Of a stretch of DNA of 64,000 nucleotides, positions 1 through 41,187 are shown piece by piece. The DNA lies in the IMG/VR virus record IMGVR_UViG_2910170622_000001, positions 33,789-97,788 of that record; one strand, given 5' to 3'. The notes under the pieces were generated by a model that was not told the origin of the DNA, made no database searches, and worked only from the letters and a program-made list of their open reading frames with translations. Source of the stretch: a virus. The position numbers and the translations under genes were made by a program. Position 1 is the stretch's first letter. The number at the start of each line of letters is the position of its first letter.

Positions 1-1
1 T

Positions 2-454
2 AATGCGACTTTTGCCTACGAATATACGCAAAAAACACTGGAGAAGGTGAACAAGTCCCTTGACAACACCACGACAAAGATAAGCGGCGCACTCGCTTTC
101 AGTGGTGTTGCTCTTAAGTTCGCTGAAAGTTTATCAGACGAAGGATGGCTCGTCTGGGTAAAAGTAGCCGTTTGCTTTTTCTCAGCAATGTCGATCGTCT
201 CATGCAGTTTAGGCTTATCCCCCGCTAGTGCTGGAAAAGTAGTTGACCCTGCCTCCTTCCTTGACGCAGAGATTTACAGGCTTCCTGACGAAAAATGTAA
301 GCTATTTACGATGAGGCAAGCACTAAAAGGGATTGAGCAATTAGACAAACTAATCGAAAAGAGACGCAGAAATTTGAACGTTGCAATCGTTCTAATTACT
401 CTTTCTGGATTAGGGATAGCTTTTAGTATTAGTGCAAGAAGCTTAAACCTGTAA
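2..454 (+). CDS. Hypothetical membrane protein, 5'-partial at window edge (full copy at 4339-4806)
   Basis: Same frame and sequence as 4339-4806; hydrophobic segments near N- and C-termini. Confidence 0.7.
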   Translation, partial: NATFAYEYTQKTLEKVNKSLDNTTTKISGALAFSGVALKFAESLSDEGWLVWVKVAVCFFSAMSIVSCSLGLSPASAGKVVDPASFLDAEIYRLPDEKCKLFTMRQALKGIEQLDKLIEKRRRNLNVAIVLITLSGLGIAFSISARSLNL

Positions 455-480
455 CGCAGACCAGAACGATTACTAAAAGT

Positions 481-658
481 TCAAACCCTAGGGTTTGAAT
501 CAATCAAAGACCGCTCGGCGCGAGCCAACTCCAGGGGATTGCACTTGTAAGGTCGGTTTGTGCGGCGTCTGGTGGCAATCCCCTGGAGCAGGCAAGAGCA
601 TAGCGGTTCTCTCGCCCGTCAAGGGACGCTACGCTCTCCGCTACGCTACGCCCCTGAC
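481..658 (-). other. Probable single-strand origin (ssoA-like); second copy at 4833-5010
   Basis: Non-coding and hairpin-rich: palindrome 481-498, IR CCAGGGGATTGC 531-542/575-586, stem GTCAAGGG/CCCCTGAC 618-658 whose loop has two minus-strand TAGCGT (CS-6-like) motifs at 626-631 and 643-648. Confidence 0.6.
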
Positions 659-726
659 TTGAGATGATGCCTAGTGCTACCACCTCCCCAAGTTACTCTC
701 CAGCAGAGCTTGGTACTGGCATCTTG

Positions 727-741
727 CCGTGTATTACACGG
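727..741. repeat. 15-bp palindrome CCGTGTA-W-TACACGG, site 1 (also 5079-5093)
   Basis: ccgtgtattacacgg overlapping the RHH gene stop codon. Confidence 0.9.
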
Positions 742-1069
742 ATGAAGTTAAAGAGTTTCGTAGTGCTTCTAAAGCACGGCGCACCGAGCCTCGGTCTTTA
801 CCGTTGCGTGTGACCATTGGATCATTAAGGACACAAGCAATCGCATTATCCACCTGCGCCAAGCTTAGTCCGTTGGTAGGCACCACCTGGTCGAACGCTC
901 TTGACTCAGTGAGCTGCTCAATCAGATCTGCCCGCGTCAGACTTTGTGCCTCAGCGACTTCACCAAGCTGCTGCCAGGTTGTATCAGTGAGACGAATGCT
1001 GCGTACTTCGCGGTGTGCGTCAGACTTAGCGGCAAACTGTCCGCAGTCGCTACGCTTTTGTTTAGTCAT
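734..1069 (-). CDS. Ribbon-helix-helix (CopG-like) DNA-binding protein
   Basis: VRSIRLTDTTWQQLGEVAEAQSLTRADLIEQL fits the RHH strand-helix-helix pattern. Confidence 0.7.
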   Translation of the reverse strand: MTKQKRSDCGQFAAKSDAHREVRSIRLTDTTWQQLGEVAEAQSLTRADLIEQLTESRAFDQVVPTNGLSLAQVDNAIACVLNDPMVTRNGKDRGSVRRALEALRNSLTSSV

Positions 1070-1076
1070 AGATCTT

Positions 1077-1091
1077 CCGTGTAATACACGG
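1077..1091. repeat. 15-bp palindrome, site 2 (also 5429-5443)
   Basis: ccgtgtaatacacgg followed by tgatt, just upstream of the RHH start and just downstream of the endonuclease stop. Confidence 0.9.
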
Positions 1092-1098
1092 TGATTAT

Positions 1099-1872
1099 CT
1101 AATTTGCAGAACTCCTGCGTCTAGTCCTGCGTGGTGGAATGTATCCGCTATTTGCTTGAGTGAGCTTTTCCCAGTTGATATGCCCTTCCTCATCAACAAA
1201 CAAAAGGGAAAATTCACGGGTTAGTTTATTTAAGGTAGTAGCCCAAGCGTCCTGATAGTCAGGACGCAAACGCAGCGGGTAATCTTTCATCAACCTTGTT
1301 AACTTCAAATAGAAGTCAGAATCGCCTGTAATTTCTTCCCAGAGAGCCTGACCTGAACGAATCAAATAGATGCGACCACCTTCTTCATCAGGCTCAGAGT
1401 TAGCCTGACCTGTTGATTGACCCAGAATTGCGACAAACCGTTTCTGAATCCCCATCTGGCAGTAGTCCTGATAGGCTTTGTCAAAGTCCTCTTTAATCCC
1501 ACGACCCATTCGAGCATTTTGCCAGTTGGAACCAGACTTCATCTCGATAACAATGTAGTCACTCTCTGTTTCGATAACAATATCCATGCCAACTTGCTCT
1601 GCTTTTGCGCCATCGCCAACAGCCTTAGCAATTTTCTCGAAGAACTCATCGCCAAAAATTGTTTCATCTGATTTAATAAGGCGCGACCTCATTAATTCTT
1701 CAACCAACTGAGGTGCTTCAGAGATTCCAGTTGCTCGAAATAAATAAGGATTTTTAGAAGCTAAATCGTTAAGCTTTAACTCTAAAAGCCTGCTGATACG
1801 GCGATCATAGAAGGATCTCAACCGCTCTATAATTAGATTTTCTAATGCTTCAAGACTGATTTGTAGCGACAT
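1099..1872 (-). CDS. Type II restriction endonuclease, EcoO109I/PmeII-like PD-(D/E)xK fold
   Basis: KNPYLF motif and GMDIVIE...VIEMKSG catalytic pattern; overlaps the MTase 3' end. Confidence 0.75.
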   Translation of the reverse strand: MSLQISLEALENLIIERLRSFYDRRISRLLELKLNDLASKNPYLFRATGISEAPQLVEELMRSRLIKSDETIFGDEFFEKIAKAVGDGAKAEQVGMDIVIETESDYIVIEMKSGSNWQNARMGRGIKEDFDKAYQDYCQMGIQKRFVAILGQSTGQANSEPDEEGGRIYLIRSGQALWEEITGDSDFYLKLTRLMKDYPLRLRPDYQDAWATTLNKLTREFSLLFVDEEGHINWEKLTQANSGYIPPRRTRRRSSAN

Positions 1873-2785
1873 TGGTTTGTAAGGGAGATAGTATCTCTAA
1901 CTGCCTTAAACTACCCAAACGATGGCGGGCAAGTTCACAATACTCATCACTTACATCAATCCCTACAAAACTTCTAGCAAGCTTTTCACAAGCTACTGCG
2001 GTTGTCCCAGATCCCATAAAGGGGTCTAAAACAACATCTCCAGACTGTGTAAACAGTTTAATAAACCAGCTTGGTAATTCCACAGGATAAGCTGCACTGT
2101 GCCCTTTGTTAGCGCACTCAGTCGCCATATGCAGCACATTGTCAGGGTATGCCATGTCACGCCCAACCCAGTTGGAAATGTTCTTGCCAAAACCACTTCC
2201 CACTTTGGAATTGTCACGAAGCATATCAGTTTCGCTCAGTTTCCTCAGTCGAGACTTTGCCCAATCGCCTGTCGGAACTTTCACTTCATCTTGGTACATC
2301 GCAAACTTTTTGCTGACGTTGAAGTGTAAGCACCGTTCCCAACCGTCCCGAAAACGATTGCTCCATTTGCCAGGGTAGCTATTTCGCTTGTGCCAACAAT
2401 ACTCCTCTGTCCAGAGCCACCCCTGCTTACGCATCTCTAGAATCAGCTCTAAAACATAGGTATGACGTTCACCATTAACGACCCGCTCTTTGATGTTCAA
2501 AACAAACGAGCCAGTAGGCTTGAGGACACGTTTTAGCTCGGCGGCGATCGGTAGAAACCACTCTACATACTGATCGGGGTGGATACCGCCATAGGTGTTT
2601 TTCCGTTGATCTGCATAAGGTGGTGAAGTGACAATCAAATCAACAGATTGGTCTGGAAGCAAAAGCAGCACGTCCAAGCAATCGCCGCAATGAAACTTGT
2701 TCAAAAACGCTGAGATACCTAGATCAGGCTTGACTGGAGGCTTTACAGAAGACCCATCCAGCAATCTCGATTGAACATTCACCAC
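1850..2785 (-). CDS. Amino-methyltransferase, beta class (probably N4-cytosine)
   Basis: Motif IV LIVTSPPY precedes motif I VLDPFMGSGTT. Confidence 0.92.
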   Translation of the reverse strand: MVNVQSRLLDGSSVKPPVKPDLGISAFLNKFHCGDCLDVLLLLPDQSVDLIVTSPPYADQRKNTYGGIHPDQYVEWFLPIAAELKRVLKPTGSFVLNIKERVVNGERHTYVLELILEMRKQGWLWTEEYCWHKRNSYPGKWSNRFRDGWERCLHFNVSKKFAMYQDEVKVPTGDWAKSRLRKLSETDMLRDNSKVGSGFGKNISNWVGRDMAYPDNVLHMATECANKGHSAAYPVELPSWFIKLFTQSGDVVLDPFMGSGTTAVACEKLARSFVGIDVSDEYCELARHRLGSLRQLEILSPLQTNVATNQS

Positions 2786-2807
2786 ACCTAATAACCCCTT
2801 ACGTTTA

Positions 2808-2822
2808 CCGTGTATTACACGG
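2808..2822. repeat. 15-bp palindrome, site 3 (also 7160-7174)
   Basis: ccgtgtattacacgg followed by tgatt, between the rep stop and the MTase start. Confidence 0.9.
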
Positions 2823-2856
2823 TGATTCTAGCAGCAACATCCGATGAATTTACCGT

Positions 2857-3831
2857 CTATGGGGACAGTCTGTACATTTTTTCTTTTCTTCGCCAACTAA
2901 AATAAACCGAGGTTTTGTCGTCCATCTCACTCTGATCATCGTTGCCAATCAGGTCTTCTGGTTCCTCTTCCAGCTCTTTGAGGTACTCTTTCAGCACCCC
3001 ACCTGTCGCCACTGCCCTCATCTTGTGCATCTGGCGGGTTAGCTCCAAGAACCATTCACGATCGGCTACCAAGTCTGATTCTTTCGTGCAGTACTTCAGA
3101 AGTTCAGGCACCAGCTCCATCGGCTTACTACCCTGCTTTACTGCCTGCACATCCAGCACTGGGTTATAGTCCAGCCTCATGCACTTACGCCACATCTCCA
3201 CCCATTCATCTTGTCTGATGTACTTCTTGCCAAAGTACGATCGCTGCACCAGTAGCAAACAATGAAAATGAGGGTGAGCGCTGCCGTCTCTACCCCGCGT
3301 GACTTCAGTAGAACGTAGCCACCCCTCACCAGGGAACGCCTTAAGCTGCACCAGGCGCTGATACCCTCGATTCATCTGCTTGAGCGTCTCGCGCAACTCA
3401 ACGATCGGCGCGTTCTTCTGGGTCAGCGTCAGAAACAGCCAGCGGTGAGAGGGGTAAGCCTCAACAATCTTCGGTAAAACCTTGTATGCCTTCGCCTTCC
3501 ACATCAGCGATCGCCTCCACTGGCAGACAGGGCAATGACGTAAGCGACAAAAACGGGCAGAGCGTAACTTTAGCTTCAGCGTATCGTGTTCAGTCGGTGC
3601 TAACCCAAATTCGAGCAACTCAGAGCAGTAGTGAATCCGGCTGCTGTAGCCATTGAACTCACTGCCTGCATAAAAACCCTCCACCCGATCGGCAAAGCTT
3701 CTGTGCTTATCCCAAGGTTTATCCTGTGGGCTTACATCCGATAGGGCAATGGGCTGACTATTGGATGCAGCAGACTCAGGCGCTATGCTAGACATAGAAA
3801 CGCCGAAGTCTGAATCGCCCGAATCAGACAT
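2857..3831 (-). CDS. rep: Rolling-circle replication initiator, Rep_1 (HUH) family
   Basis: FCRLRHCPVCQWRRS, motif 1 FLTLT, motif 2 HPHFHCLL, motif 3 ELLKYCTK. Confidence 0.95.
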   Translation of the reverse strand: MSDSGDSDFGVSMSSIAPESAASNSQPIALSDVSPQDKPWDKHRSFADRVEGFYAGSEFNGYSSRIHYCSELLEFGLAPTEHDTLKLKLRSARFCRLRHCPVCQWRRSLMWKAKAYKVLPKIVEAYPSHRWLFLTLTQKNAPIVELRETLKQMNRGYQRLVQLKAFPGEGWLRSTEVTRGRDGSAHPHFHCLLLVQRSYFGKKYIRQDEWVEMWRKCMRLDYNPVLDVQAVKQGSKPMELVPELLKYCTKESDLVADREWFLELTRQMHKMRAVATGGVLKEYLKELEEEPEDLIGNDDQSEMDDKTSVYFSWRRKEKMYRLSP

Positions 3832-3975
3832 TCAAAAACCCGTGATATTCAGTTGGAGAGTGGTATCCCAACCGTATCACGGGTTTTGGCTTTTAAACCC
3901 AAAAAGCTTTTATCTCTTAATCTGCCTCAAACCCTTACCCAAAAGGGGATAGCACCGATTCTACGAATCAGAGTT

Positions 3976-4007
3976 ATCCCTCATAATTCAAGTGAAGGCG
4001 GAGGGAT
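3976..4007 (-). other. Double-strand origin: hairpin with predicted nick CTTG^A between 3989 and 3988
   Basis: Minus strand ATCCCTC-cgccttcaCTTG^Aattat-GAGGGAT. It is the only CTTGA I found upstream of rep and matches the pC194/phiX174 CTTG^A nick core. An IR AAAACCCGTGATA/TATCACGGGTTTT (about 3835-3888) may be the Rep-binding site. Confidence 0.75.
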
Positions 4008-4338
4008 GCAAAAGCATGCAACGATATGCAAAAAACATAGGAACCCTTAAGGGTTCGGTAAAAGTTTTTAAGCAAAAATCAGCCTCTCTAATCGGTGACT
4101 GCGATCACATCAAAGCATCTGACGTTACCGCTGAAGTCACCAGTTTTTTACTATCAGCATCATACGATAGCGTATATACAAATCTTTACAAAGGACGTGA
4201 TCCGCCACCCTGGTCAGTCATTTTCCTTTTGAATCATCACCATCTGTGCGCTCGTACCGAACTTTCGGGGGATCAGGTGTTGGCGGGGGCGGGGGTGGTT
4301 TAGGTTTGTCGTCCTGATTTGAATTTGAATTAGTAGTC

Positions 4339-4806
4339 ATGACTGAACATAATAATGCGACTTTTGCCTACGAATATACGCAAAAAACACTGGAGAAGGT
4401 GAACAAGTCCCTTGACAACACCACGACAAAGATAAGCGGCGCACTCGCTTTCAGTGGTGTTGCTCTTAAGTTCGCTGAAAGTTTATCAGACGAAGGATGG
4501 CTCGTCTGGGTAAAAGTAGCCGTTTGCTTTTTCTCAGCAATGTCGATCGTCTCATGCAGTTTAGGCTTATCCCCCGCTAGTGCTGGAAAAGTAGTTGACC
4601 CTGCCTCCTTCCTTGACGCAGAGATTTACAGGCTTCCTGACGAAAAATGTAAGCTATTTACGATGAGGCAAGCACTAAAAGGGATTGAGCAATTAGACAA
4701 ACTAATCGAAAAGAGACGCAGAAATTTGAACGTTGCAATCGTTCTAATTACTCTTTCTGGATTAGGGATAGCTTTTAGTATTAGTGCAAGAAGCTTAAAC
4801 CTGTAA
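4339..4806 (+). CDS. Hypothetical membrane protein
   Basis: 155-aa ORF with ATG start and 2-3 hydrophobic helices. Confidence 0.7.
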   Translation: MTEHNNATFAYEYTQKTLEKVNKSLDNTTTKISGALAFSGVALKFAESLSDEGWLVWVKVAVCFFSAMSIVSCSLGLSPASAGKVVDPASFLDAEIYRLPDEKCKLFTMRQALKGIEQLDKLIEKRRRNLNVAIVLITLSGLGIAFSISARSLNL

Positions 4807-5085
4807 CGCAGACCAGAACGATTACTAAAAGTTCAAACCCTAGGGTTTGAATCAATCAAAGACCGCTCGGCGCGAGCCAACTCCAGGGGATTGCACTTGT
4901 AAGGTCGGTTTGTGCGGCGTCTGGTGGCAATCCCCTGGAGCAGGCAAGAGCATAGCGGTTCTCTCGCCCGTCAAGGGACGCTACGCTCTCCGCTACGCTA
5001 CGCCCCTGACTTGAGATGATGCCTAGTGCTACCACCTCCCCAAGTTACTCTCCAGCAGAGCTTGGTACTGGCATCTTGCCGTGTA

Positions 5086-5421
5086 TTACACGGATGAAGT
5101 TAAAGAGTTTCGTAGTGCTTCTAAAGCACGGCGCACCGAGCCTCGGTCTTTACCGTTGCGTGTGACCATTGGATCATTAAGGACACAAGCAATCGCATTA
5201 TCCACCTGCGCCAAGCTTAGTCCGTTGGTAGGCACCACCTGGTCGAACGCTCTTGACTCAGTGAGCTGCTCAATCAGATCTGCCCGCGTCAGACTTTGTG
5301 CCTCAGCGACTTCACCAAGCTGCTGCCAGGTTGTATCAGTGAGACGAATGCTGCGTACTTCGCGGTGTGCGTCAGACTTAGCGGCAAACTGTCCGCAGTC
5401 GCTACGCTTTTGTTTAGTCAT
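5086..5421 (-). CDS. RHH DNA-binding protein (copy 2)
   Basis: Identical to 734-1069. Confidence 0.7.
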   Translation of the reverse strand: MTKQKRSDCGQFAAKSDAHREVRSIRLTDTTWQQLGEVAEAQSLTRADLIEQLTESRAFDQVVPTNGLSLAQVDNAIACVLNDPMVTRNGKDRGSVRRALEALRNSLTSSV

Positions 5422-5450
5422 AGATCTTCCGTGTAATACACGGTGATTAT

Positions 5451-6224
5451 CTAATTTGCAGAACTCCTGCGTCTAGTCCTGCGTGGTGGAATGTATCCGC
5501 TATTTGCTTGAGTGAGCTTTTCCCAGTTGATATGCCCTTCCTCATCAACAAACAAAAGGGAAAATTCACGGGTTAGTTTATTTAAGGTAGTAGCCCAAGC
5601 GTCCTGATAGTCAGGACGCAAACGCAGCGGGTAATCTTTCATCAACCTTGTTAACTTCAAATAGAAGTCAGAATCGCCTGTAATTTCTTCCCAGAGAGCC
5701 TGACCTGAACGAATCAAATAGATGCGACCACCTTCTTCATCAGGCTCAGAGTTAGCCTGACCTGTTGATTGACCCAGAATTGCGACAAACCGTTTCTGAA
5801 TCCCCATCTGGCAGTAGTCCTGATAGGCTTTGTCAAAGTCCTCTTTAATCCCACGACCCATTCGAGCATTTTGCCAGTTGGAACCAGACTTCATCTCGAT
5901 AACAATGTAGTCACTCTCTGTTTCGATAACAATATCCATGCCAACTTGCTCTGCTTTTGCGCCATCGCCAACAGCCTTAGCAATTTTCTCGAAGAACTCA
6001 TCGCCAAAAATTGTTTCATCTGATTTAATAAGGCGCGACCTCATTAATTCTTCAACCAACTGAGGTGCTTCAGAGATTCCAGTTGCTCGAAATAAATAAG
6101 GATTTTTAGAAGCTAAATCGTTAAGCTTTAACTCTAAAAGCCTGCTGATACGGCGATCATAGAAGGATCTCAACCGCTCTATAATTAGATTTTCTAATGC
6201 TTCAAGACTGATTTGTAGCGACAT
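5451..6224 (-). CDS. Type II restriction endonuclease (copy 2)
   Basis: Identical to 1099-1872. Confidence 0.75.
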   Translation of the reverse strand: MSLQISLEALENLIIERLRSFYDRRISRLLELKLNDLASKNPYLFRATGISEAPQLVEELMRSRLIKSDETIFGDEFFEKIAKAVGDGAKAEQVGMDIVIETESDYIVIEMKSGSNWQNARMGRGIKEDFDKAYQDYCQMGIQKRFVAILGQSTGQANSEPDEEGGRIYLIRSGQALWEEITGDSDFYLKLTRLMKDYPLRLRPDYQDAWATTLNKLTREFSLLFVDEEGHINWEKLTQANSGYIPPRRTRRRSSAN

Positions 6225-7137
6225 TGGTTTGTAAGGGAGATAGTATCTCTAACTGCCTTAAACTACCCAAACGATGGCGGGCAAGTTCACAATACTCATC
6301 ACTTACATCAATCCCTACAAAACTTCTAGCAAGCTTTTCACAAGCTACTGCGGTTGTCCCAGATCCCATAAAGGGGTCTAAAACAACATCTCCAGACTGT
6401 GTAAACAGTTTAATAAACCAGCTTGGTAATTCCACAGGATAAGCTGCACTGTGCCCTTTGTTAGCGCACTCAGTCGCCATATGCAGCACATTGTCAGGGT
6501 ATGCCATGTCACGCCCAACCCAGTTGGAAATGTTCTTGCCAAAACCACTTCCCACTTTGGAATTGTCACGAAGCATATCAGTTTCGCTCAGTTTCCTCAG
6601 TCGAGACTTTGCCCAATCGCCTGTCGGAACTTTCACTTCATCTTGGTACATCGCAAACTTTTTGCTGACGTTGAAGTGTAAGCACCGTTCCCAACCGTCC
6701 CGAAAACGATTGCTCCATTTGCCAGGGTAGCTATTTCGCTTGTGCCAACAATACTCCTCTGTCCAGAGCCACCCCTGCTTACGCATCTCTAGAATCAGCT
6801 CTAAAACATAGGTATGACGTTCACCATTAACGACCCGCTCTTTGATGTTCAAAACAAACGAGCCAGTAGGCTTGAGGACACGTTTTAGCTCGGCGGCGAT
6901 CGGTAGAAACCACTCTACATACTGATCGGGGTGGATACCGCCATAGGTGTTTTTCCGTTGATCTGCATAAGGTGGTGAAGTGACAATCAAATCAACAGAT
7001 TGGTCTGGAAGCAAAAGCAGCACGTCCAAGCAATCGCCGCAATGAAACTTGTTCAAAAACGCTGAGATACCTAGATCAGGCTTGACTGGAGGCTTTACAG
7101 AAGACCCATCCAGCAATCTCGATTGAACATTCACCAC
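6202..7137 (-). CDS. Beta-class amino-methyltransferase (copy 2)
   Basis: Identical to 1850-2785. Confidence 0.92.
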   Translation of the reverse strand: MVNVQSRLLDGSSVKPPVKPDLGISAFLNKFHCGDCLDVLLLLPDQSVDLIVTSPPYADQRKNTYGGIHPDQYVEWFLPIAAELKRVLKPTGSFVLNIKERVVNGERHTYVLELILEMRKQGWLWTEEYCWHKRNSYPGKWSNRFRDGWERCLHFNVSKKFAMYQDEVKVPTGDWAKSRLRKLSETDMLRDNSKVGSGFGKNISNWVGRDMAYPDNVLHMATECANKGHSAAYPVELPSWFIKLFTQSGDVVLDPFMGSGTTAVACEKLARSFVGIDVSDEYCELARHRLGSLRQLEILSPLQTNVATNQS

Positions 7138-7208
7138 ACCTAATAACCCCTTACGTTTACCGTGTATTACACGGTGATTCTAGCAGCAACATCCGATGAA
7201 TTTACCGT

Positions 7209-8183
7209 CTATGGGGACAGTCTGTACATTTTTTCTTTTCTTCGCCAACTAAAATAAACCGAGGTTTTGTCGTCCATCTCACTCTGATCATCGTTGCCAA
7301 TCAGGTCTTCTGGTTCCTCTTCCAGCTCTTTGAGGTACTCTTTCAGCACCCCACCTGTCGCCACTGCCCTCATCTTGTGCATCTGGCGGGTTAGCTCCAA
7401 GAACCATTCACGATCGGCTACCAAGTCTGATTCTTTCGTGCAGTACTTCAGAAGTTCAGGCACCAGCTCCATCGGCTTACTACCCTGCTTTACTGCCTGC
7501 ACATCCAGCACTGGGTTATAGTCCAGCCTCATGCACTTACGCCACATCTCCACCCATTCATCTTGTCTGATGTACTTCTTGCCAAAGTACGATCGCTGCA
7601 CCAGTAGCAAACAATGAAAATGAGGGTGAGCGCTGCCGTCTCTACCCCGCGTGACTTCAGTAGAACGTAGCCACCCCTCACCAGGGAACGCCTTAAGCTG
7701 CACCAGGCGCTGATACCCTCGATTCATCTGCTTGAGCGTCTCGCGCAACTCAACGATCGGCGCGTTCTTCTGGGTCAGCGTCAGAAACAGCCAGCGGTGA
7801 GAGGGGTAAGCCTCAACAATCTTCGGTAAAACCTTGTATGCCTTCGCCTTCCACATCAGCGATCGCCTCCACTGGCAGACAGGGCAATGACGTAAGCGAC
7901 AAAAACGGGCAGAGCGTAACTTTAGCTTCAGCGTATCGTGTTCAGTCGGTGCTAACCCAAATTCGAGCAACTCAGAGCAGTAGTGAATCCGGCTGCTGTA
8001 GCCATTGAACTCACTGCCTGCATAAAAACCCTCCACCCGATCGGCAAAGCTTCTGTGCTTATCCCAAGGTTTATCCTGTGGGCTTACATCCGATAGGGCA
8101 ATGGGCTGACTATTGGATGCAGCAGACTCAGGCGCTATGCTAGACATAGAAACGCCGAAGTCTGAATCGCCCGAATCAGACAT
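7209..8183 (-). CDS. rep: Rep_1 rolling-circle initiator (copy 2)
   Basis: Identical to 2857-3831. Confidence 0.95.
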   Translation of the reverse strand: MSDSGDSDFGVSMSSIAPESAASNSQPIALSDVSPQDKPWDKHRSFADRVEGFYAGSEFNGYSSRIHYCSELLEFGLAPTEHDTLKLKLRSARFCRLRHCPVCQWRRSLMWKAKAYKVLPKIVEAYPSHRWLFLTLTQKNAPIVELRETLKQMNRGYQRLVQLKAFPGEGWLRSTEVTRGRDGSAHPHFHCLLLVQRSYFGKKYIRQDEWVEMWRKCMRLDYNPVLDVQAVKQGSKPMELVPELLKYCTKESDLVADREWFLELTRQMHKMRAVATGGVLKEYLKELEEEPEDLIGNDDQSEMDDKTSVYFSWRRKEKMYRLSP

Positions 8184-8341
8184 TCAAAAACCCGTGATAT
8201 TCAGTTGGAGAGTGGTATCCCAACCGTATCACGGGTTTTGGCTTTTAAACCCAAAAAGCTTTTATCTCTTAATCTGCCTCAAACCCTTACCCAAAAGGGG
8301 ATAGCACCGATTCTACGAATCAGAGTTATCCCTCATAATTC

Positions 8342-9691
8342 GAGGATGTAGCTGAAAAACTCCCTCGTCGAACGATCAAAGGTGTTCATTTGAGAGCGTT
8401 CAAGCTTGGCTTGATGCCTGACAAGAATCTGTGGGCAGAACAAGAAGACGAGATCATTAGAAGCAATTATCCGAGGCTAACATCCAGACAGCTTTCAAGC
8501 CTGCTACCAGGCAGGACTCAACTGGCGATCAAGCAAAGAATATGCCAGCTAGGTGTTCAGGTTGAGCGGTGGGCTTGTAAGCATTCAGCAAGCAAAGAGT
8601 TTTTTGAGGAGCCTAACCTGCTTAATTGCTATTGGGCAGGGCTGATTGCGGCTGACGGATGCATAAGCCAATCAACCATCGGCAAAACAAAAACTTTGAG
8701 GATCGCGCTTGTTCATTCAGACGGCTACTTGCTAGAGCGGTTTGCGAAAGACTGTAAGTACACGGGCAGCGTAAGTATAAGCAAGAAGAAGGCAGTAGAA
8801 AAGAAGATTTTAGGAAGAGAGATAAAAGCAAGCATGGCGGCAACAATCAGCATTAGCTGCTGCCAGAATTGGTTTGACGATTTAGAGAAGCATTGGAACA
8901 TCACACCAAGAAAAAGCTTGACGCTTCAGCCGCCCAATAATTTAAACCCTGAACACTCCTTAGCTTATGTAAAAGGTTTTTTTGATGGGGATGGTTGCGC
9001 TCACTTAAGAAAAAACGGCATCCTTACATTGTGTTTCTATGGAACATTTGAGTCTCTTGACTGGATTAAATCTATCTGCGATAGGGTATCCCCTCAATAC
9101 ACCGATGATTGGCGAGAAAAAAGCCGTAAAACTTCAGAACTGGTGCAGGCAGGCAAAATTTACAACTACAGCATTAGCGGCTATAGAGCCGAGCAGCTAG
9201 CAGAAGAAATCTTAAAGCTAGAGCTACCAGGAATGTTGCGGAAGTGGGACAAAATCAAAGAATGGCTTAAGGATAAAGCCGACAAAAAAATTGCAATTAG
9301 CAAGCCTGTCCAGCTTCACGTCTTCGATGAGTCTAAGGTTTATCTTGGCAGGCTTTGCAAGCGTGGGCATGATTACAGCGGGACAGGGCAAAGTCTTAGG
9401 CGTGTTGGGCATGGCAGTTGCGTCAAATGTGGTCAGATAAACGCAAAAGTAAAAACTCCAATGGTGCCAATGTCTTTCTATTTCCAGGAAACAACCAAAC
9501 TAGCTCCTGAACTGGACGGCACACCTCGATACTTGGGCTGTCTTTGCGTGAAGCATCCATACCAAAACACAGGATATAGTTTGCGGTATCGCGGCGGTAG
9601 AGGTTGTATAGAATGCTTAAACAGCAGGGCAAGAACCAAGCGAGAAGAGGCGGCTAGTACGATCGCCCCTGTGATTTGCCTAGCCGACTGA
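8342..9691 (+). pseudogene. 5'-truncated LAGLIDADG homing-endonuclease-like gene with N-terminal Myb-like repeats and two C-terminal Cys/His zinc-ribbon repeats
   Basis: WAGLIAADG and VKGFFDGDG motifs. The frame is open from the junction (EDVAEKLPRRTIKGVHLRAFKLGL is the second half of a repeat whose complete copy follows), and plasmid TAA at 8336-8338 is in frame. TTG 8390 could restart translation. Confidence 0.7.
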
Positions 9692-17459: not shown

Positions 17460-18872
17460 CTAATCGGCGGGAAGTCCCGCGCTCTAATCTTTAATTGAGC
17501 GTCGGGATGAAAGCCAGGGTTGCTTCTTGCCGTCCGGTTTATGGTCTTTACCGAAGCTGAAGAACAAACCGGATAGGCAAGAAGCAACCAATCTCTTATA
17601 CGGTACACCGAAGTTACGGTAAATATGGTTTGTGCTAAAATAACAATATGAAAAACGTTGTCAAGGTCAGAATTTATCCAACCATCGAGCAAAAGGAGAC
17701 GCTTTCTAAGGCGTTTGGTTGTGCGCGTTGGTACTGGAATAATTCACTGAGCGCAACGAATGAGCTTTACAAAGAGACGGGTAAAGGCTTATCTCAGATT
17801 GGGATGAATAGCCGATTACCTGCGCTCAAAAAAGAGTATGAATGGCTGGGTGAAACCTACAGCCAAGTGCTGCAAAGCGTCTCGCTCAACCTATCGAGAG
17901 CGTTTATCAACTTCTTTGAGGGACGGGCATCATTCCCTAACTTCAAGTCAAAGCATGATAAACAATCGATTCAGTACCCGCAAAAAGTTCAGATTGTCGA
18001 TGAAAGCCATCTGAAGTTTCCCGGCAAGCTAAGCGTTGTTTCTGCCAAGATTCATCGCACGTTTGAGGGGAGAATCAAGACAGTTACGGTAAGTATGAAT
18101 CATGCAGGGAAGTATTACGCCTCCCTGCTATTTGATGATGAATTGCCTGATGTCGAAGTTTCTTCGGATGGTAAAGCGGTCGGGATTGATGTGGGACTGA
18201 CTCACTTTGCGATTACTTCTGATGGTTCCAAGTTTGACAATCCTAAGCCGTTGAAAAAACGCGCTAAGAATCTAAAACGAAAGCAACAGAAACTATCTCG
18301 TAAACAGAAGGGCTCAAATCGCAGAAAGAAAGCCCGACGCATCGTAGCACGGGTGCATGAAAGAATTGCAAATTCTCGTAAGGACTTCCAACACAAGTTA
18401 TCTCGCAAACTGGTGAACGAAAACCAAGTCATCGTTGTCGAGAATCTGGCAGTCAAGAACATGGTTAAGAATCACTGTCTAGCTAAAGCAATTAGCGATT
18501 GTGGCTGGTCAGAGTTCACTCGTCAACTGAAATACAAGGCGGAAAGAGACGGAAAGACCTATCTAGAAATCGGTCGGTTTTTCCCGTCGAGTAAGACTTG
18601 TCACGTTTGCCTCAATCAAGTCGGTAGCCTGTCTCTTGATGTTCGTAGCTGGACTTGTTCTAGCTGTCAGACAAAGCACGATAGAGATATCAATGCGGCT
18701 ATCAATATTCGAGATGAAGGCTTACGAGTATTAGCGTTAGGAACTAGCGCTACTGCCAATGGACGGAATGTAAGTCCGAGGGTTGGAAGGAAATCTTCCG
18801 TGTCTAAGGCTGTTCCGGTTGAAGTTGGAAGCCAGCACCGTACCGCCTAGCGGTCGGTGTCTGGTAGTTCAC
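17460..18872 (+). mobile_element. IS200/IS605-family element with tnpB only (IS1341-like)
   Basis: Inserted 3' of TTAA (17456-17459). LE hairpin CCCG-CGCTC/GAGCG-T-CGGG is preceded by guide AAGT (AAxT predicts TTAA). RE hairpin is preceded by GAAG and ends in TCAC (18869-18872). Confidence 0.85.
17648..18850 (+). CDS. tnpB: TnpB RNA-guided endonuclease
   Basis: N-terminal VRIYPT HTH, RuvC GIDVG / VVENL / DRDINAA and CHVC-CSSC zinc finger; catalytic D-E-D intact. Confidence 0.95.
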   Translation: MKNVVKVRIYPTIEQKETLSKAFGCARWYWNNSLSATNELYKETGKGLSQIGMNSRLPALKKEYEWLGETYSQVLQSVSLNLSRAFINFFEGRASFPNFKSKHDKQSIQYPQKVQIVDESHLKFPGKLSVVSAKIHRTFEGRIKTVTVSMNHAGKYYASLLFDDELPDVEVSSDGKAVGIDVGLTHFAITSDGSKFDNPKPLKKRAKNLKRKQQKLSRKQKGSNRRKKARRIVARVHERIANSRKDFQHKLSRKLVNENQVIVVENLAVKNMVKNHCLAKAISDCGWSEFTRQLKYKAERDGKTYLEIGRFFPSSKTCHVCLNQVGSLSLDVRSWTCSSCQTKHDRDINAAINIRDEGLRVLALGTSATANGRNVSPRVGRKSSVSKAVPVEVGSQHRTA

Positions 18873-37604: not shown

Positions 37605-38129
37605 GTGCTTAGAGGCTTATTCGGTGGAAAGAAAGAAGAATATAGCGGGTCTAGTGCGTTCGGGACAGTTCTTTTTACGCCCTGGGCAGCCGAATATCGC
37701 GGCGAGATCCCTGCCACCACAGGTGTTACCCACAACCTCTTTGCCGCTGCCATCACACCAGAAGCGGCAAAAGCCTTGCTGGGAGAGGGATTTAGACCTA
37801 TTAACGGAGCAATCCCGACTCACACGATCAAGTGCACTACGGCATTGGCTCGTGACTCGTATCAGCCTAGGGCGTTGTTCGATTTATTCATTGACCTATC
37901 GGCTTTCCCAGCTAGCTGGGGGCTTTGGATCGCTGTTCAAACGTGCAAAAGATTGAAGCGTCGTTTATTCACTTGCACTGAGAAAGCGCTTTTGATTCGT
38001 TGCAAGACTGAGAATGAATTTCCGTTCTGTTGTGATGACCAAACGCTTGATATTGCTTGGCTAGATGATGGCAACCGCTGTTTGGGGTTGGCGATCGCTG
38101 AGTATAAAAAGATGACTAACACTGAATAG
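37605..38129 (+). CDS. Hypothetical protein
   Basis: 174-aa ORF directly upstream of the EAL gene. Confidence 0.55.
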   Translation: MLRGLFGGKKEEYSGSSAFGTVLFTPWAAEYRGEIPATTGVTHNLFAAAITPEAAKALLGEGFRPINGAIPTHTIKCTTALARDSYQPRALFDLFIDLSAFPASWGLWIAVQTCKRLKRRLFTCTEKALLIRCKTENEFPFCCDDQTLDIAWLDDGNRCLGLAIAEYKKMTNTE

Positions 38130-38135
38130 GACGGC

Positions 38136-38912
38136 ATGAAACTCCGCGATCGCACACTCCGCCACCGCATTGAAAGCGCTCTAGACCAGGGGCGTATCAT
38201 CTTTCACTGCCAACCGATTAAGTTGCTTGCAGGCGGCACTGACGCTGACCCCCCGTTAATGTTTGAGTTGTTGGCTCGACTGCATGAACCGGACGATCGC
38301 GGCTTCTTGCAAATCGTGCCTGCCATGCAATGGATCGATGGACTGGTCGAGCATCCTGACTTGTTGAAGCGGATTGATCGGGCAAGTATCTTGCACGCGA
38401 TCGCGCATCAGGATAACGCTGTTCATGCGGTGAACCTATCGGCAGAAACGCTGAACGACTACGGGCTGCTAGGTTTCATCGCTGACCATATGGCAGACAA
38501 GAGCGTGGATCGAGAGCGCATCCATTTCGAAGTCACAGAATCATCCGCATTGCAGCCACCATCGCTGTTAGTGTTTGACCAGATGCGCGGCTTTGGTTTT
38601 CACTGGATTGGCTTGGATGACTTTGGGCAGAAGCAAAACGGCTTCAGTGCGCTTGATATAGTCAAACCAAAGTTCCTGAAGATTGATGGGGCTTACTGTA
38701 AAACACTATTGGCTTCTGAGGTGAGCGTGGCGATCGTCATGGGCACTCTGGTCATTGCTCAAAGACTCAAGATCGTTTGCATTGCGGAGATGATTGAGAA
38801 TCAGGCGATCGAGCAACGGCTCAGGGAGATCCATCAGGAGGTAGCACCATACGCCACGCTGTACGGGCAGGGGCATGAATATGGGCGACCTGTGCCGTGT
38901 AGCCATCAATAG
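38136..38912 (+). CDS. Stand-alone EAL-domain (c-di-GMP phosphodiesterase-like) protein
   Basis: FHCQP, ELLAR, VNLS, FEVTE, LDDFG, LKIDG, IAEMIE and QG motifs in canonical order. Confidence 0.88.
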   Translation: MKLRDRTLRHRIESALDQGRIIFHCQPIKLLAGGTDADPPLMFELLARLHEPDDRGFLQIVPAMQWIDGLVEHPDLLKRIDRASILHAIAHQDNAVHAVNLSAETLNDYGLLGFIADHMADKSVDRERIHFEVTESSALQPPSLLVFDQMRGFGFHWIGLDDFGQKQNGFSALDIVKPKFLKIDGAYCKTLLASEVSVAIVMGTLVIAQRLKIVCIAEMIENQAIEQRLREIHQEVAPYATLYGQGHEYGRPVPCSHQ

Positions 38913-38925
38913 AATTTTCAGGTAA

Positions 38926-39183
38926 CTAGTAATGGCTAATTTTCTCTTTGCAAATGCCTATGTTACACCTCAACCCAATATCAAGAGAGCCGCAGTTGGG
39001 GCAGTGCCCTCTATCACCAGCATTGATTAAGTTCAAATTCCACCAAGAAGAAAAGCTGCTATTTATGTTTTCTCTCCCTATCTCTCGATAGGTGCCATCC
39101 ATTAATTGAACTTCCAGAACAACTTGGGCGGTCTGATTGTTTTCCCCGCCTTCTCGTCTGATACCAACAGCTTTAATATCCAC
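38926..39183 (-). CDS. Hypothetical protein with C-terminal CxxC motif
   Basis: 85-aa ORF with CPNC...C. Confidence 0.5.
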   Translation of the reverse strand: MDIKAVGIRREGGENNQTAQVVLEVQLMDGTYREIGRENINSSFSSWWNLNLINAGDRGHCPNCGSLDIGLRCNIGICKEKISHY

Positions 39184-39552
39184 GTTTTACCTTTAGTTTG
39201 TTGTCAACCGTTAACGTCAATCCTGTGCTTTGAATTACTTGTAAGGTCTGACCACCTACATTAATTTCAGTGCCGGGAGCAATACTTATAAAACAGTGTC
39301 ATTCCTTGCGTAAAAAATCCAGAAGGATCACTGCATACCCTGTGCCATAGCCAAGATCAATTGCAAGTCCTTGAGAAATCGGGGTGTTAAGCTTGACGAC
39401 AAAGCGATCAGTTAACGCAAGGGAAGCAGGCGATCGTTGATGCACGTGACTTTGAATGGTTAAGTCAGTGGAAGTGGTACTACAAGTCAGGTGGTTATAA
39501 TGGTTACGCTTCAAGAGCAGACTCGTCGGCAGGTGCGCCAGTTCACGTATCA

Positions 39553-40101
39553 ATGCATCGAGAGATCTTTAAGTGGCACTCCTCTGAAGTCGACATTTCG
39601 GAACTGGAAATAGATCATCGAAATAGAATCAAACTTGATAACAGATTTGAAAACCTGCGGCTTGCAACTCAGCAACAAAACAGGGTAAATAGAGGACCTA
39701 GCATCCTGAACAAAAGTGGCTACAAAGGAGTTGATTACGATCCCAAGGCTCAAGCTTGGAGAGCGCAAATCACGGTAAACGGTAAAAAAACGGGGCTTGG
39801 TGGCTACGCTACGCCAGAAGAAGCCGCTCAGGTTTATAACGACGCTGCTTTTCAGGCTTTCGGAGAATTTGCTTATTTGAACTACTTACCTGAACGTGTC
39901 ATACCTGTGAGGTTTATTAGAGATTCTAATGCTCCTAGAAGAAGTTTCAAAGGAAGATGCCTTTGTAAAAGAAGTGGGAAATGGCGGGCATACGGGAAGG
40001 CGGATGGAAAAATAGTTTTCTTAGGTCGATTTGATACCGAGGCGGAGGCTATTGAAAAACACATTGCTTTCCAAAACTCTTTGCTACAAAAACAAAATTA
40101 A
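39553..40101 (+). CDS. HNH-AP2 homing endonuclease (reading frame extends 5' to 39397 without a start codon)
   Basis: IDHRNRIKLDNRFENLRLAT (HNH), SGYKGV...WRAQITVNGKKTGLG (AP2) and a second AP2-like repeat. Confidence 0.88.
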   Translation: MHREIFKWHSSEVDISELEIDHRNRIKLDNRFENLRLATQQQNRVNRGPSILNKSGYKGVDYDPKAQAWRAQITVNGKKTGLGGYATPEEAAQVYNDAAFQAFGEFAYLNYLPERVIPVRFIRDSNAPRRSFKGRCLCKRSGKWRAYGKADGKIVFLGRFDTEAEAIEKHIAFQNSLLQKQN

Positions 40102-40564
40102 GTCAGATGACGGCTTAACCTTGATAGAACTCCTGGTTGCGATCGGAGTTCTATCAATTCTCGCAGCATTGGCGTTGCCTGCCTATCTAAATCAAATTCG
40201 TAAGGCTCAACGGGTCCAGGCGTTAACTGATATTGAAGCAATGAAGCCTGAAATTATTGGGTATCGACAGAAGAACGGGCGGTTCCCTCCTGATGTGCAG
40301 CCCAATGTCAAACCCGATGAAGTGCCAAGCTTCAAGCTGCCGCCAGATTCGGCATGGGGCAAGTCGATCGATTACAACAGCCATTGTCTATCAACACCAG
40401 ACGGGAAGATTGCGAGAGTTGTACGGATCAACTCCTTCGGACCAGATGGCATACGGCAACATAACCATGACTACTACGACATCAAAGATCGAAACAATGG
40501 CGATGATGTGGTTGTAACGATCGCCGTGGTTTTACCAGAGGAGAGTGAGCAGTGTCCACCATAA
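40064..40564 (+). CDS. Type IV pilin / GspG-like pseudopilin (start uncertain)
   Basis: Class III signal G|LTLIELLVAIGVLSILAALALP with Glu+5; WGKSIDY and NSFGPDG resemble GspG motifs. Confidence 0.85.
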   Translation: MLSKTLCYKNKIKSDDGLTLIELLVAIGVLSILAALALPAYLNQIRKAQRVQALTDIEAMKPEIIGYRQKNGRFPPDVQPNVKPDEVPSFKLPPDSAWGKSIDYNSHCLSTPDGKIARVVRINSFGPDGIRQHNHDYYDIKDRNNGDDVVVTIAVVLPEESEQCPP

Positions 40565-40574
40565 AAAAGAAGTC

Positions 40575-40781
40575 ATGCCTGAGTTAACGCCTGAGGAGTT
40601 GCATGAATTGAGTTTCATCCTGAGCCAAATGACTAGGGATGAAATACGGCAGATCTATTTGTCGGTGAATATGCCCGCATCTAAAACTGATGCCGCGATC
40701 GCTGCCGCCTTCTCGGTCAGAGACAAAATAGTGAAAGTGTTCAAAGAGACGCTAGGCAAAAGTGAGCAGTGCCTACCGTAG
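40575..40781 (+). CDS. Hypothetical protein
   Basis: ATG after AAGAAG; bracketed by an imperfect 21-bp repeat. Confidence 0.5.
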   Translation: MPELTPEELHELSFILSQMTRDEIRQIYLSVNMPASKTDAAIAAAFSVRDKIVKVFKETLGKSEQCLP

Positions 40782-40871
40782 CTTACAGGCTAAAATTGAA
40801 GGGCATCAAGCATTCCATCTAAGGGTCAGCATCTACACGATCGAGTTGGAGAGTACACGCCACCCAAAACG

Positions 40872-41153
40872 ATGGCACACAAGTTTTTCCCAGGGCAACC
40901 AGTACGCCCAATTAATACTTACGGACTGCCACCAGGCTCAGGTTGGTACACTGACGATTGGCGCTTTCGCGTCTCGTTCGACTCTGAAGCTCCTGGTGGT
41001 TTTGCTATTCGTCCATCACGCAGCTTTAGCCAGAAGCTTGTTGTTCACTTGCAGGTCTGCCAGTACGAAGATTATGGCAATGGTGATTTGAAAGTGCAAA
41101 AGCAGTTTCAATGCTGGCAGTGGGTGGAAGATTTTAAGAATGTAGATCGGTAG
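40872..41153 (+). CDS. Hypothetical protein
   Basis: 93-aa ORF ending at a bidirectional hairpin. Confidence 0.5.
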   Translation: MAHKFFPGQPVRPINTYGLPPGSGWYTDDWRFRVSFDSEAPGGFAIRPSRSFSQKLVVHLQVCQYEDYGNGDLKVQKQFQCWQWVEDFKNVDR

Positions 41154-41162
41154 ACATGAAAA

Positions 41163-41183: not shown

Positions 41184-41187
41184 GAGT

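What the first reader, a model, noticed from the sequence alone, without database searches (positions are those of the whole stretch)
8320..8360. Plasmid array is fused to the phage exactly at the Rep nick site, suggesting rolling-circle integration of an R-M plasmid
Seen: the plasmid dso (3976-4007) is a 7-bp hairpin whose loop reads CTTG^AATTAT on the rep strand. The array ends at 8340/8341, which is that nick position in copy 2, so 3989-8340 is one perfect nick-to-nick unit. On the minus strand the junction reads phage-...CATCCTCG^AATTATGAGGG-plasmid, so the phage supplies CTCG where the plasmid has CTTG. Phage GAGGAT (8342-8347) can also pair with the remaining dso arm ATCC(C)TC. The phage gene is cut mid-repeat. 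Known: pC194/phiX-type Reps nick CTTG^A, stay bound to the 5' end and join it to a 3'-OH; IS91-type RC transposases insert beside CTTG-like tetramers without target duplication and can give tandem inserts; phage infection can produce plasmid concatemers. Inference: a free RCR plasmid Rep joined a concatemer to a cryptic nick site in a phage, delivering an R-M system. A random breakpoint would land here only about 2 times in 4352.
Basis: partly seen in the sequence, partly recalled or inferred. Interest (0 to 1): 0.93.

Follow-up and report, generated by a model that had tools for sequence, protein, structure and literature searches.

The report
Rolling-circle plasmid inserted at its nick
A small rolling-circle plasmid carrying a restriction-modification system sits as an exact double copy inside a prophage gene, broken precisely where its own replication protein cuts, and four other cyanobacterial genomes show the same kind of junction, so this plasmid family probably inserts itself much as IS91-type transposons do.

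Summary
A 4,352-bp Rep_1 (pC194/pUB110-type) plasmid sits as an exact head-to-tail dimer (2 x 4,352 bp + 2 shared bases) in the middle of a 109-kb provirus record. That record is cut from a 516-kb contig of an isolate assembly.

- **Junctions.** Both fall at one plasmid position, the predicted nick CTTG^A, inside a block conserved in about 12 related cyanobacterial plasmids.
- **Clean insertion.** Removing 8,704 bp restores a 472-aa LAGLIDADG/HTH gene. It aligns colinearly from residue 1 with uninterrupted homologues, including one in a partly syntenic relative.
- **Target.** The target is CTCG^A. CTCG and CTAG also occur as the nick tetranucleotide in small relatives (one shown to be circular).
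- **Recurrence.** Four more loci have the origin's 3' half fused at the same bond to foreign DNA ending in CTNG: another phage, a Waterburya chromosome (both ends) and two cyanobacterial MAG contigs.

Best reading (about 0.7): Rep-catalysed strand transfer into pseudo-nick sites, parallel to IS91 (targets CTTG and CTCG, no duplication).

Caveats: nothing was tested biochemically, no reads could be laid across the junction, and the copy number may be the assembler's choice. The target is a resident prophage, so phage infection need not be involved.

I class this as a new variant of a known kind.

The parts
1..3988 (-). Plasmid copy 1. It begins 364 bp left of the window, at genome 33424. This is a nick-to-nick unit of 4,352 bp.
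   Evidence: genome 33424-37775 is identical to 37776-42127.
3989..8340 (-). Plasmid copy 2, a complete nick-to-nick unit of 4,352 bp.
3925..4007 (-). Intact internal double-strand origin. On the rep strand it reads CCGCCTTCACTTG^AATTATGAGGGATAAC, followed by an inverted repeat. The predicted nick lies between 3989 and 3988.
   Evidence: Conserved in about 12 related cyanobacterial plasmids or small contigs. DNA similarity to relatives ends at 3997-4002. The pC194 nick aligns here.
8270..8341 (-). Hybrid half-origin at the right junction. The 3' half of the dso, including the inverted repeat, is now preceded by the phage's CTCG.
   Evidence: CTCG is the native nick tetranucleotide in relative L153, whose Rep is 82% identical.
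8339..8342 (.). Right junction. TC (8340-8341) is shared by plasmid and target, and the mismatch with the plasmid starts at 8342.
2857..3831 (-). rep, copy 1 (324 aa).
   Evidence: Pfam Rep_1, E = 2.4e-86, profile positions 2-252 of 253. HUH and E243/Y247 motifs present.
7209..8183 (-). rep, copy 2, identical to copy 1.
1850..2785 (-). DNA methyltransferase. The second copy is at 6202-7137.
   Evidence: Pfam N6_N4_Mtase, E = 1.4e-45.
1099..1872 (-). Type II restriction endonuclease. The second copy is at 5451-6224.
   Evidence: Pfam RE_EcoO109I, E = 2.1e-44.
734..1069 (-). Ribbon-helix-helix protein. The second copy is at 5086-5421.
   Evidence: Pfam RHH_4, E = 1e-4, below the curated cut-off.
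510..607 (.). Imperfect long palindrome, a candidate single-strand origin. The second copy is at 4862-4959.
   Evidence: Inverted repeat I1. It is 95% conserved in relative L169 and covered by biocrust metagenome contigs. The function is inferred.
8342..9691 (+). 3' 450 codons of the interrupted LAGLIDADG/HTH-repeat gene. The 5' 22 codons lie at genome 33357-33423.
   Evidence: Pfam LAGLIDADG_3/_1, weak hits. The restored 472-aa product aligns colinearly with intact homologues.

Best explanation
A pC194-type rolling-circle plasmid was inserted into a prophage gene by its own HUH initiator.

**Proposed steps (inferred)**
1. Rep nicks the plasmid origin at CTTG^A and stays bound to the 5' end.
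2. A target strand cut at the look-alike site CTCG^A supplies a 3'-OH. That 3'-OH resolves the Rep-DNA bond, giving phage-CTCG|AATTAT-plasmid.
3. After two rounds of displacement synthesis (termination read-through), or starting from a circular dimer, the plasmid 3' end ...CACTTG-OH is joined to the target's 5' end |ATCGG.
4. The complementary strand is then filled in.

**Expected product.** An integer number of nick-to-nick units with no target duplication and no loss of target bases.

**Shown:** the anatomy, the conserved origin, the precise restoration of the target gene, and recurrence at CTNG in other genomes.

**Inferred:** that Rep cuts the target and does the joining, the order of steps, and that the hybrid half-origins could re-launch free plasmid copies by rolling-circle replication.
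For: - **Same point on the plasmid.** Both junctions fall at one plasmid position, within 1 bp of the predicted nick, with exactly 2 x 4,352 bp between them. A random breakpoint would land there about 7e-4 of the time.
- **Independent definition of the nick.** The Rep_1 family assignment, the pC194 nick CTTG|ATAATA (PMC5037232) and the conserved block CCGCCTTCACTTGAATTATGAGGGATAAC all point to it. That block lies 130-236 nt upstream of rep in plasmids whose Rep is only 64-68% identical, and it recurs in about 12 small cyanobacterial contigs.
- **The target bases belong to the target.** CTCGA comes from the codons ATC GAG. Uninterrupted homologues read M(P/S)IEE at that point, and relative L197 has ...TCGATCGAGGAA there.
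- **Variable third position in native origins.** L145 has CTAG and terminal overlaps that show it is circular. L153 has CTCG and a Rep 82% identical.
- **Four other loci.** In each, the 3' half of the origin is fused at the same bond to demonstrably foreign DNA ending in CTNG:
  - G001 phage: CTCG, with rep now a pseudogene.
  - Waterburya chromosome: CTTG inside a cut FMN_red gene, with the other end CACTTG|GGCG beside a truncated AI-2E transporter gene.
  - L171: CTGG at the end of an APH-like gene.
  - L149: CTCG in a chromosomal intergenic region.
- **Statistics.** The background frequency of CT.G is 0.9-1.7%, so 5 of 5 gives p of about 1e-9.
- **IS91 parallel.** The IS91 transposase is described as related to pUB110-family Reps (reference). 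IS91 inserts without duplication next to CTTG or GTTC, less often CTCG or CTGG. It cuts its own ter end at CTCG and over-runs termination (PMC13181058).
Against: - No biochemical or read-level evidence exists. No public run listed holds the phage flank, and none of the laid contigs crosses the junction.
- pC194-type Reps have one catalytic Tyr plus a Glu that is thought to hydrolyse at termination. A concerted two-ended strand exchange would therefore need two Rep molecules or a second route.
- Apart from the 5-nt core, the target has no Rep-binding inverted repeat.
- One related Rep_1 module in a 36-kb viral contig (G002) has an intact origin, so it did not enter at the nick.
- My census was seeded with the 3' half of the origin. 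It therefore finds nick junctions preferentially.
Confidence: 0.7

Rival explanations
1. Rep only makes the plasmid-side break. A nick at the origin is turned into a double-strand end, for example by a passing fork, or linear rolling-circle concatemers accumulate. Host end-joining or microhomology-mediated repair then pastes the linear nick-to-nick dimer into a chance break in the prophage.
For: There is a 2-bp shared TC/GA at both junctions. Illegitimate recombination at the pC194 and M13 origins is a classical laboratory observation (Michel and Ehrlich 1986, listed). Its content is from my own knowledge because the paper is not held.
Against: Repair by microhomology predicts contiguous matches of variable length at random targets. 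Instead, all five foreign flanks end in C-T-N-G, with the third base variable. The target lost and gained no bases. Both plasmid ends would have to be preserved to the nucleotide.
Confidence: 0.18
2. Assembly artefact. A free high-copy plasmid was threaded into the chromosome path by the assembler or by chimeric reads. A milder version is that the integration is real but the copy number of two is the assembler's traversal of a loop.
For: A perfect 4.35-kb tandem cannot be counted with short reads. I could not obtain reads of the source sample.
Against: The insert lies in the middle of a 516-kb contig of a deposited assembly. Its two junctions use the same plasmid bond and the same target bond and restore the gene exactly. 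Chimeric reads would not do this twice. Related junctions occur in four unrelated assemblies, two of them with decayed rep genes, which free plasmids would not carry.
Confidence: 0.06
3. Integration was carried out by some other recombinase (tyrosine or serine integrase, Xer), by homologous recombination, or by capture at a break made by the LAGLIDADG endonuclease.
For: The insert lies in a homing-endonuclease-like gene. Many small Rep-bearing elements elsewhere do integrate with integrases (earlier notes of this scan).
Against: The plasmid encodes no integrase, and no PF00589 match exists anywhere in the 109-kb record. Only 2 bp are shared between plasmid and target. The other insertions are in unrelated genes.
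Confidence: 0.04

Closest known systems
IS91-family rolling-circle transposition (IS91, IS801, IS1294)
   Same: IS91 uses an HUH enzyme reported to be related to pUB110-family Reps. It inserts next to a tetranucleotide (CTTG or GTTC, less often CTCG or CTGG) with a T at position 2 and makes no target duplication. Its ter end is cut at CTCG, and termination read-through carries extra DNA (PMC13181058; PMC5714925). Here the targets are CTCG, CTTG and CTGG, there is no duplication beyond the ambiguous 2 bp, and the insert is a two-unit read-through product.
   Different: This Rep is a full-length Rep_1 protein with one Tyr (E243...Y247), not a two-tyrosine transposase. The only link to IS91 is a sub-threshold Zn_Tnp_IS91 hit. 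The element is an autonomous plasmid with a single origin serving as both ends, not an IS with distinct ori and ter ends.
Illegitimate recombination at the pC194 and M13 replication origins (Michel and Ehrlich 1986)
   Same: One partner of the recombination junction lies at the Rep nick site of a Rep_1 plasmid. Content is from my own knowledge; the citation is listed.
   Different: Those were laboratory constructs giving deletions or fusions. Here the events are natural, complete insertions into a prophage and other non-plasmid DNA, recurring across genera, with a definable target tetranucleotide.
TrwC (R388 relaxase) site-specific integration
   Same: An HUH enzyme bound to a transferred strand integrates it into a short nic-like target, including fortuitous look-alike sequences (PMC3264647).
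   Different: TrwC is a two-tyrosine conjugative relaxase that needs a 17-bp nic plus binding site. Here the enzyme is a replication initiator, and the recognisable target is only CTNG(A).
AAV Rep68/78 integration at AAVS1; geminivirus-related DNA in Nicotiana genomes
   Same: Head-to-tail tandem copies of a Rep-encoding replicon are integrated with involvement of the origin nick. This is from my own knowledge; PMC6049929 (listed, not read) links AAV Rep and TrwC as HUH integrases.
   Different: These are eukaryotic viruses, with a Rep-binding element required at the target (AAV), and their junctions are usually imprecise.
Integrated Spiroplasma plectrovirus copies
   Same: The integrated copies were noted to begin and end at the Rep nick site.
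   Different: That is a filamentous phage with a phiX-type two-tyrosine Rep.

Membership tests
pC194/pUB110 (Rep_1) rolling-circle plasmids | Initiator with a Rep_1 domain (PF01446) | tested here: met
   E = 2.4e-86, 290 bits against a cut-off of 33, profile positions 2-252 of 253.
pC194/pUB110 (Rep_1) rolling-circle plasmids | [quoted passage not shown] | tested here: met
   H186-P-H188-F-H190 and E243-L-L-K-Y247 are present in the sequence. The pC194 residues are taken from PMC5703833. Equivalence rests on motif and spacing, not on an alignment to pC194.
pC194/pUB110 (Rep_1) rolling-circle plasmids | Double-strand origin with a CTTG^A nick upstream of rep | tested here: inconclusive
   A conserved CACTTGAATTAT block lies 130-236 nt upstream of rep in all relatives and aligns with the pC194 nick. 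The nick itself has not been mapped experimentally.
pC194/pUB110 (Rep_1) rolling-circle plasmids | Single-strand origin and single-stranded DNA intermediates | not testable with these tools
   A candidate palindrome lies at 510-607 and is conserved in L169. No functional data exist.
pC194/pUB110 (Rep_1) rolling-circle plasmids | Exists as a free circle | tested here: inconclusive
   Relatives 90-97% identical in rep and dso are continuous across the nick in biocrust metagenome contigs (joint 8340->3989). L145 is circular by its terminal overlap. This exact plasmid was seen only in integrated form.
IS91 family (Y2 HUH transposases) | Transposase with two catalytic tyrosines (Y2_Tnp) and a zinc-binding N-terminal domain | tested here: not met
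   No Y2_Tnp hit. Zn_Tnp_IS91 reaches only E = 0.006, 17 bits against a cut-off of 26.3. The active-site motif holds a single Tyr.
IS91 family (Y2 HUH transposases) | Insertion next to a CTTG/GTTC-type tetranucleotide without target duplication | tested here: met
   The targets are CTCG, CTCG, CTTG, CTGG and CTCG at five loci. In G000 no bases were lost or gained other than the ambiguous TC.
IS91 family (Y2 HUH transposases) | Distinct ori and ter ends bounding the element | tested here: not met
   Both ends are the two halves of one plasmid origin.
Type II restriction-modification system (cargo) | Adjacent REase and MTase genes | tested here: met
   RE_EcoO109I (E = 2e-44) and N6_N4_Mtase (E = 1e-45) genes overlap by 23 bp. 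Their specificity and activity were not tested.

The most novel reading that the evidence does not exclude
Cyanobacterial Rep_1 plasmids are facultative rolling-circle transposons. Using only their replication initiator, they insert nick-to-nick next to CTNG in chromosomes and prophages. From the hybrid half-origins left at the ends, they can be copied out again as free circles. An integrated copy in a prophage would then give plasmids that lack mobilisation genes, and their restriction-modification cargo, a transduction route to new hosts. It would also be a living intermediate between rolling-circle plasmids and IS91/Helitron-type transposons.
Probability: 0.3. Interest if true: 0.88.

Novelty: new variant of a known kind. 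Interest (0 to 1): 0.72.

Why it matters
HUH initiators are known to integrate DNA as transposases (IS91, Helitrons), as relaxases (TrwC) and as viral Reps (AAV). For ordinary rolling-circle plasmids, the evidence I know of is laboratory-made deletions at the pC194 origin.

This case adds a natural, base-perfect insertion of a complete plasmid dimer. It also adds four independent relatives with the same junction and a shared CTNG target.

- **Evolution.** It makes the proposed link between Rep_1 plasmids and IS91-type transposons directly testable with a defined Rep, origin and target.
- **Gene transfer.** It suggests how small plasmids without mobilisation genes, and the restriction-modification systems they carry, can enter chromosomes and prophages.
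- **Annotation.** Integrated plasmids of this kind lack integrases and repeats, so they are easily missed or taken for assembly errors.

Tried and rejected
- **Phage collection.** A megablast of the phage flank against INPHARED phages found no match.
- **LAGLIDADG relatives in IMG/VR.** A search with the LAGLIDADG protein found none.
- **Exact empty-site 20-mer.** It had no hit in viral contigs and one hit in metagenome contigs. That hit shares nothing beyond the 20-mer, so it is chance.
- **Reads across the junction.** The two run searches gave only partial holders of the plasmid half (shares of 0.21 or less) and none for the phage flank. The four runs I laid carry relatives of rep and dso but never enter the phage. 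The junction therefore remains unverified at read level.
- **The other end of the L171 element.** The contig starts inside the element, and the overlapping contig shows no recognisable 5' half-origin.
- **Short-pattern scans.** A search for the 5' half across whole genomes, and a 14-mer scan of viral contigs, returned only chance-level hits with no Rep nearby.
- **Literature.** The Michel and Ehrlich papers are not held. Four literature searches found no report of natural nick-site integration of a Rep_1 plasmid. That is not proof that none exists.
- **PvuI-type cut of the target's CGATCG.** I considered this as the source of the target break and rejected it, because the other four junction flanks do not show that site.
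Phage GAGGAT pairing with the remaining hairpin arm finds a similar ATCCTC only in L149. That is 2 of 5 junctions, and I could not test it further.
- **Unverified candidates.** L143, L157, L160, L033 and L067 have non-consensus flanks at the nick but no rep in the fetched DNA. I left them unverified and did not count them as evidence.

Full report
**1. What is in the sequence**

The window is bases 33789-97788 of a single 108,923-bp record. A 4,352-bp unit repeats with 100% identity.

Followed into the whole record, the repeat spans genome 33424-42129. That is exactly 2 x 4,352 bp plus 2 bases, and the two copies are identical. The array is therefore a precise head-to-tail dimer that starts 365 bp left of the window. 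It is not an open-ended array.

- The left junction reads phage ...GGCAAAATGCCGA|TCAAGTGAAGG... plasmid.
- The right junction reads plasmid ...CCCTCATAAT-TC|GAGGATGTAGC... phage.

TC is present at both junctions. This places the crossover within window 8339-8341 and within the same three bonds of the plasmid at the other end.

**2. What the insert is**

The unit encodes four recognisable proteins:

- a 324-aa Rep_1 initiator (PF01446, E = 2e-86, full profile length)
- an N6_N4 methyltransferase
- an EcoO109I-like endonuclease
- a weak ribbon-helix-helix protein

Rep carries H186-P-H188-F-H190 and E243...Y247. That is the Glu-to-Tyr spacing reported for pC194 RepA residues E210 and Y214 (PMC5703833).

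The closest plasmids in PLSDB are four 4.4-4.6-kb cyanobacterial plasmids (Planktothrix, Crinalium, Cylindrospermum pCYLM02, Picosynechococcus PCC 8807). Their Reps are 64-68% identical. Small enterobacterial Rep_1 plasmids follow.

At the DNA level, the only thing these plasmids share with the unit is a short block upstream of rep. The block reads CCGCCTTCACTTGAATTATGAGGGATAAC and is followed by a GGGATAAC...GTTATCCC inverted repeat.

A pattern scan of one genome per species found the same block in about a dozen further small cyanobacterial contigs. One of them is L169, whose Rep is 96% identical. DNA similarity to all relatives stops at unit position 3997-4002, the 5' edge of this block.

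The pC194 origin is cut at CTTG|ATAATA (given as TATTAT|CAAGATAAG in PMC5037232). Aligned on CAAG, this puts the nick between window 8340 and 8341 in copy 2, and between 3988 and 3989 in the intact internal origin.

It is absent from relatives, so I give it no weight.

**3. It is a true, clean insertion**

Deleting 8,704 bp joins the flanks into one open frame of 472 codons, starting MGGKLWEGWEIQVLRDCCGKMP-IE-DVAEKL....

A search of 5.8 billion proteins found uninterrupted homologues of 458-585 aa, for example from Leptolyngbya boryana and Nostoc carneum. They start MGGKLWEGWE(M/L)QVLRDNCGKM(P/S)IEEVA... and align without any gap across the junction.

One of them (P0005) lies in a phage-like metagenome contig. 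That contig is syntenic downstream with the window, sharing the LAGLIDADG gene and then a roughly 1,400-aa protein. At the site it reads ...ATGTCGATCGAGGAA.... The bases CTCGAT on the rep strand therefore belong to the target gene.

No exact empty-site allele was found in the public collections.

**4. What the host DNA is**

The record has capsid, protease and large-terminase genes. However, it starts at the start codon of an aminotransferase gene and ends at a stop codon.

IMG/VR classes it as a provirus, 84% complete. The same genes, including both plasmid copies, lie at 377-398 kb of a 515,821-bp contig of NCBI assembly GCA_014695795.1.

The plasmid therefore sits in a resident prophage. 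Nothing requires that it entered during an infection.

**5. Recurrence**

Searching for relatives of Rep and for the 3' half of the origin turned up other copies embedded in large contigs. In four of them the conserved CTTCACTTG is replaced, exactly at the nick, by unrelated DNA.

| Locus | Host context | Junction (flank then origin) | Evidence that the flank is foreign |
|---|---|---|---|
| G001 | 49-kb phage contig, only distantly related to this prophage (TerL 30% identical) | ...GGGGAGGGCTCG\|AATTATGAGGGATAAG | Lies after terminase, LysM and dCTP-deaminase genes. rep is a pseudogene with an internal deletion of about 27 aa and a frameshift |
| L167 | Waterburya chromosome | Left: ...GTCAACTTG + AATTATTAG\|AATTATTAGGGATAA. 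Right, 2.0 kb on: CTCCGCCTTCACTTG\|GGCG... | Left flank is an FMN_red gene cut after 45 codons. Right flank is a truncated AI-2E transporter gene. rep is decayed |
| L171 | 54-kb cyanobacterial MAG contig | ...CCAGACTGG\|AATTATTAGGG | Junction lies at the end of an APH-like gene. The element carries rep plus an NgoPII-like endonuclease and a C5 methyltransferase |
| L149 | Snowella MAG contig | ...AATCCTCTCG\|AATTATTAGGG | Flank is chromosomal DNA with glycosyltransferase and shikimate dehydrogenase genes |

With the window, that makes five independent loci whose foreign flank ends in C-T-N-G. CT.G occurs at 0.9-1.7% of positions in these sequences, so 5 of 5 has p of about 1e-9.

The third base also varies in native origins. 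L145, circular by its terminal overlap, has CACTAG. L153, with a Rep 82% identical, has CACTCG.

One counter-example exists. A 36-kb viral contig (G002) carries an intact origin and an intact rep, so that module did not enter at the nick.

Five further candidates lack a rep in the fetched DNA and were not counted.

**6. Mechanism**

The anatomy is what Rep-catalysed strand transfer predicts:

- integer nick-to-nick units
- no loss or duplication of target bases
- a target that mimics the nick core

The variable third base argues against simple microhomology repair, which would give contiguous matches of variable length.

The pattern closely parallels IS91, whose transposase has been described as related to pUB110-family Reps (reference). 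According to PMC13181058, IS91:

- inserts without target duplication next to CTTG or GTTC, and less often CTCG or CTGG, always with T at position 2
- cuts its own ter end at CTCG
- frequently reads through termination

Here the two-unit insert would be the read-through product, or a circular dimer served as the substrate.

Rep here is nevertheless a one-tyrosine Rep_1 protein, not a Y2 transposase. It works like IS91 but is not a member of that family.

The integrated dimer keeps three origin-like sites:

- an intact internal origin
- a left hybrid (CTCG plus the whole 3' half, including the inverted repeat)
- a right hybrid (the whole 5' half plus A)

Rolling-circle replication could therefore plausibly release monomer circles again. 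That is my inference, and it is untested.

**7. Limits**

- No reads could be laid across the junction. The runs found hold only relatives of the rep-dso module, which are continuous across the nick as in a circle.
- If the assembly came from short reads, the copy number of two may be the assembler's choice.
- The nick has not been mapped.
- My census was seeded with the origin's 3' half, so it favours finding nick junctions.

**8. Verdict**

Rep-mediated integration has probability about 0.7. The rivals are Rep-made break plus host repair (about 0.18), artefact (about 0.06) and another recombinase (about 0.04).

I class it as a new variant of a known kind (HUH-mediated integration), of clear interest because it recurs and is testable.

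I did not check that note.

Noticed in passing
L171:685-3800 (contig JANXUJ010000119.1): This is a second integrated Rep_1 element with restriction-modification cargo (NgoPII-like endonuclease plus C5 methyltransferase). Its origin is an extended perfect palindrome, so a CTTG^AATTAT-like site is present on both strands.
   Followed up: partly
L033:7488-7710 (IMG/VR provirus, 49 kb): Two origin 3' halves lie in inverted orientation about 190 bp apart, bounded by ...ACTTG and CAAGA..., with no rep within the fetched 8.5 kb. It looks like a miniature or collapsed remnant of a head-to-head insertion.
   Followed up: no
L167:7731-7749 (Waterburya chromosome OZ244627.1): At the left junction, the first 9 nt after the nick (AATTATTAG) are present twice in tandem. 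This may relate to leading-strand synthesis running about 10 nt past the nick before termination (Khan, quoted in PMC5037232). It remains unexplained.
   Followed up: no
L009:5120-7391 (IMGVR_UViG_3300032296_004192, 36 kb, 92% complete): This phage-like contig carries an intact Rep_1 gene, an intact origin and a gene shared with the Crinalium plasmid, next to a Rad52-like recombinase gene. Either the plasmid module was captured by another route, or the phage uses it for replication.
   Followed up: partly
L145 (4,563-bp contig) and L153 (4,207-bp contig): These are native origins with CACTAG|A and CACTCG|A instead of CACTTG|A. The base before the nick-proximal G is therefore free to vary in this plasmid family.
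   Followed up: partly
window 727, 1077, 2808 (and the second copy): The palindrome CCGTGTA-W-TACACGG occurs three times per plasmid unit at module boundaries. It may be an operator for the RHH protein.
   Followed up: no
window 17648-18850: An IS605-type TnpB gene (PHROG transposase, E = 3e-128; OrfB_IS605 in the source's precomputed Pfam) is inserted among the tail genes of the same prophage.
   Followed up: no
window 4829-4996 (= 477-644): The palindromic candidate single-strand origin is the plasmid part most often covered by biocrust and soil metagenome contigs, apart from rep and dso. The restriction-modification genes are almost absent from those runs, so the cargo is specific to this plasmid.
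   Followed up: partly
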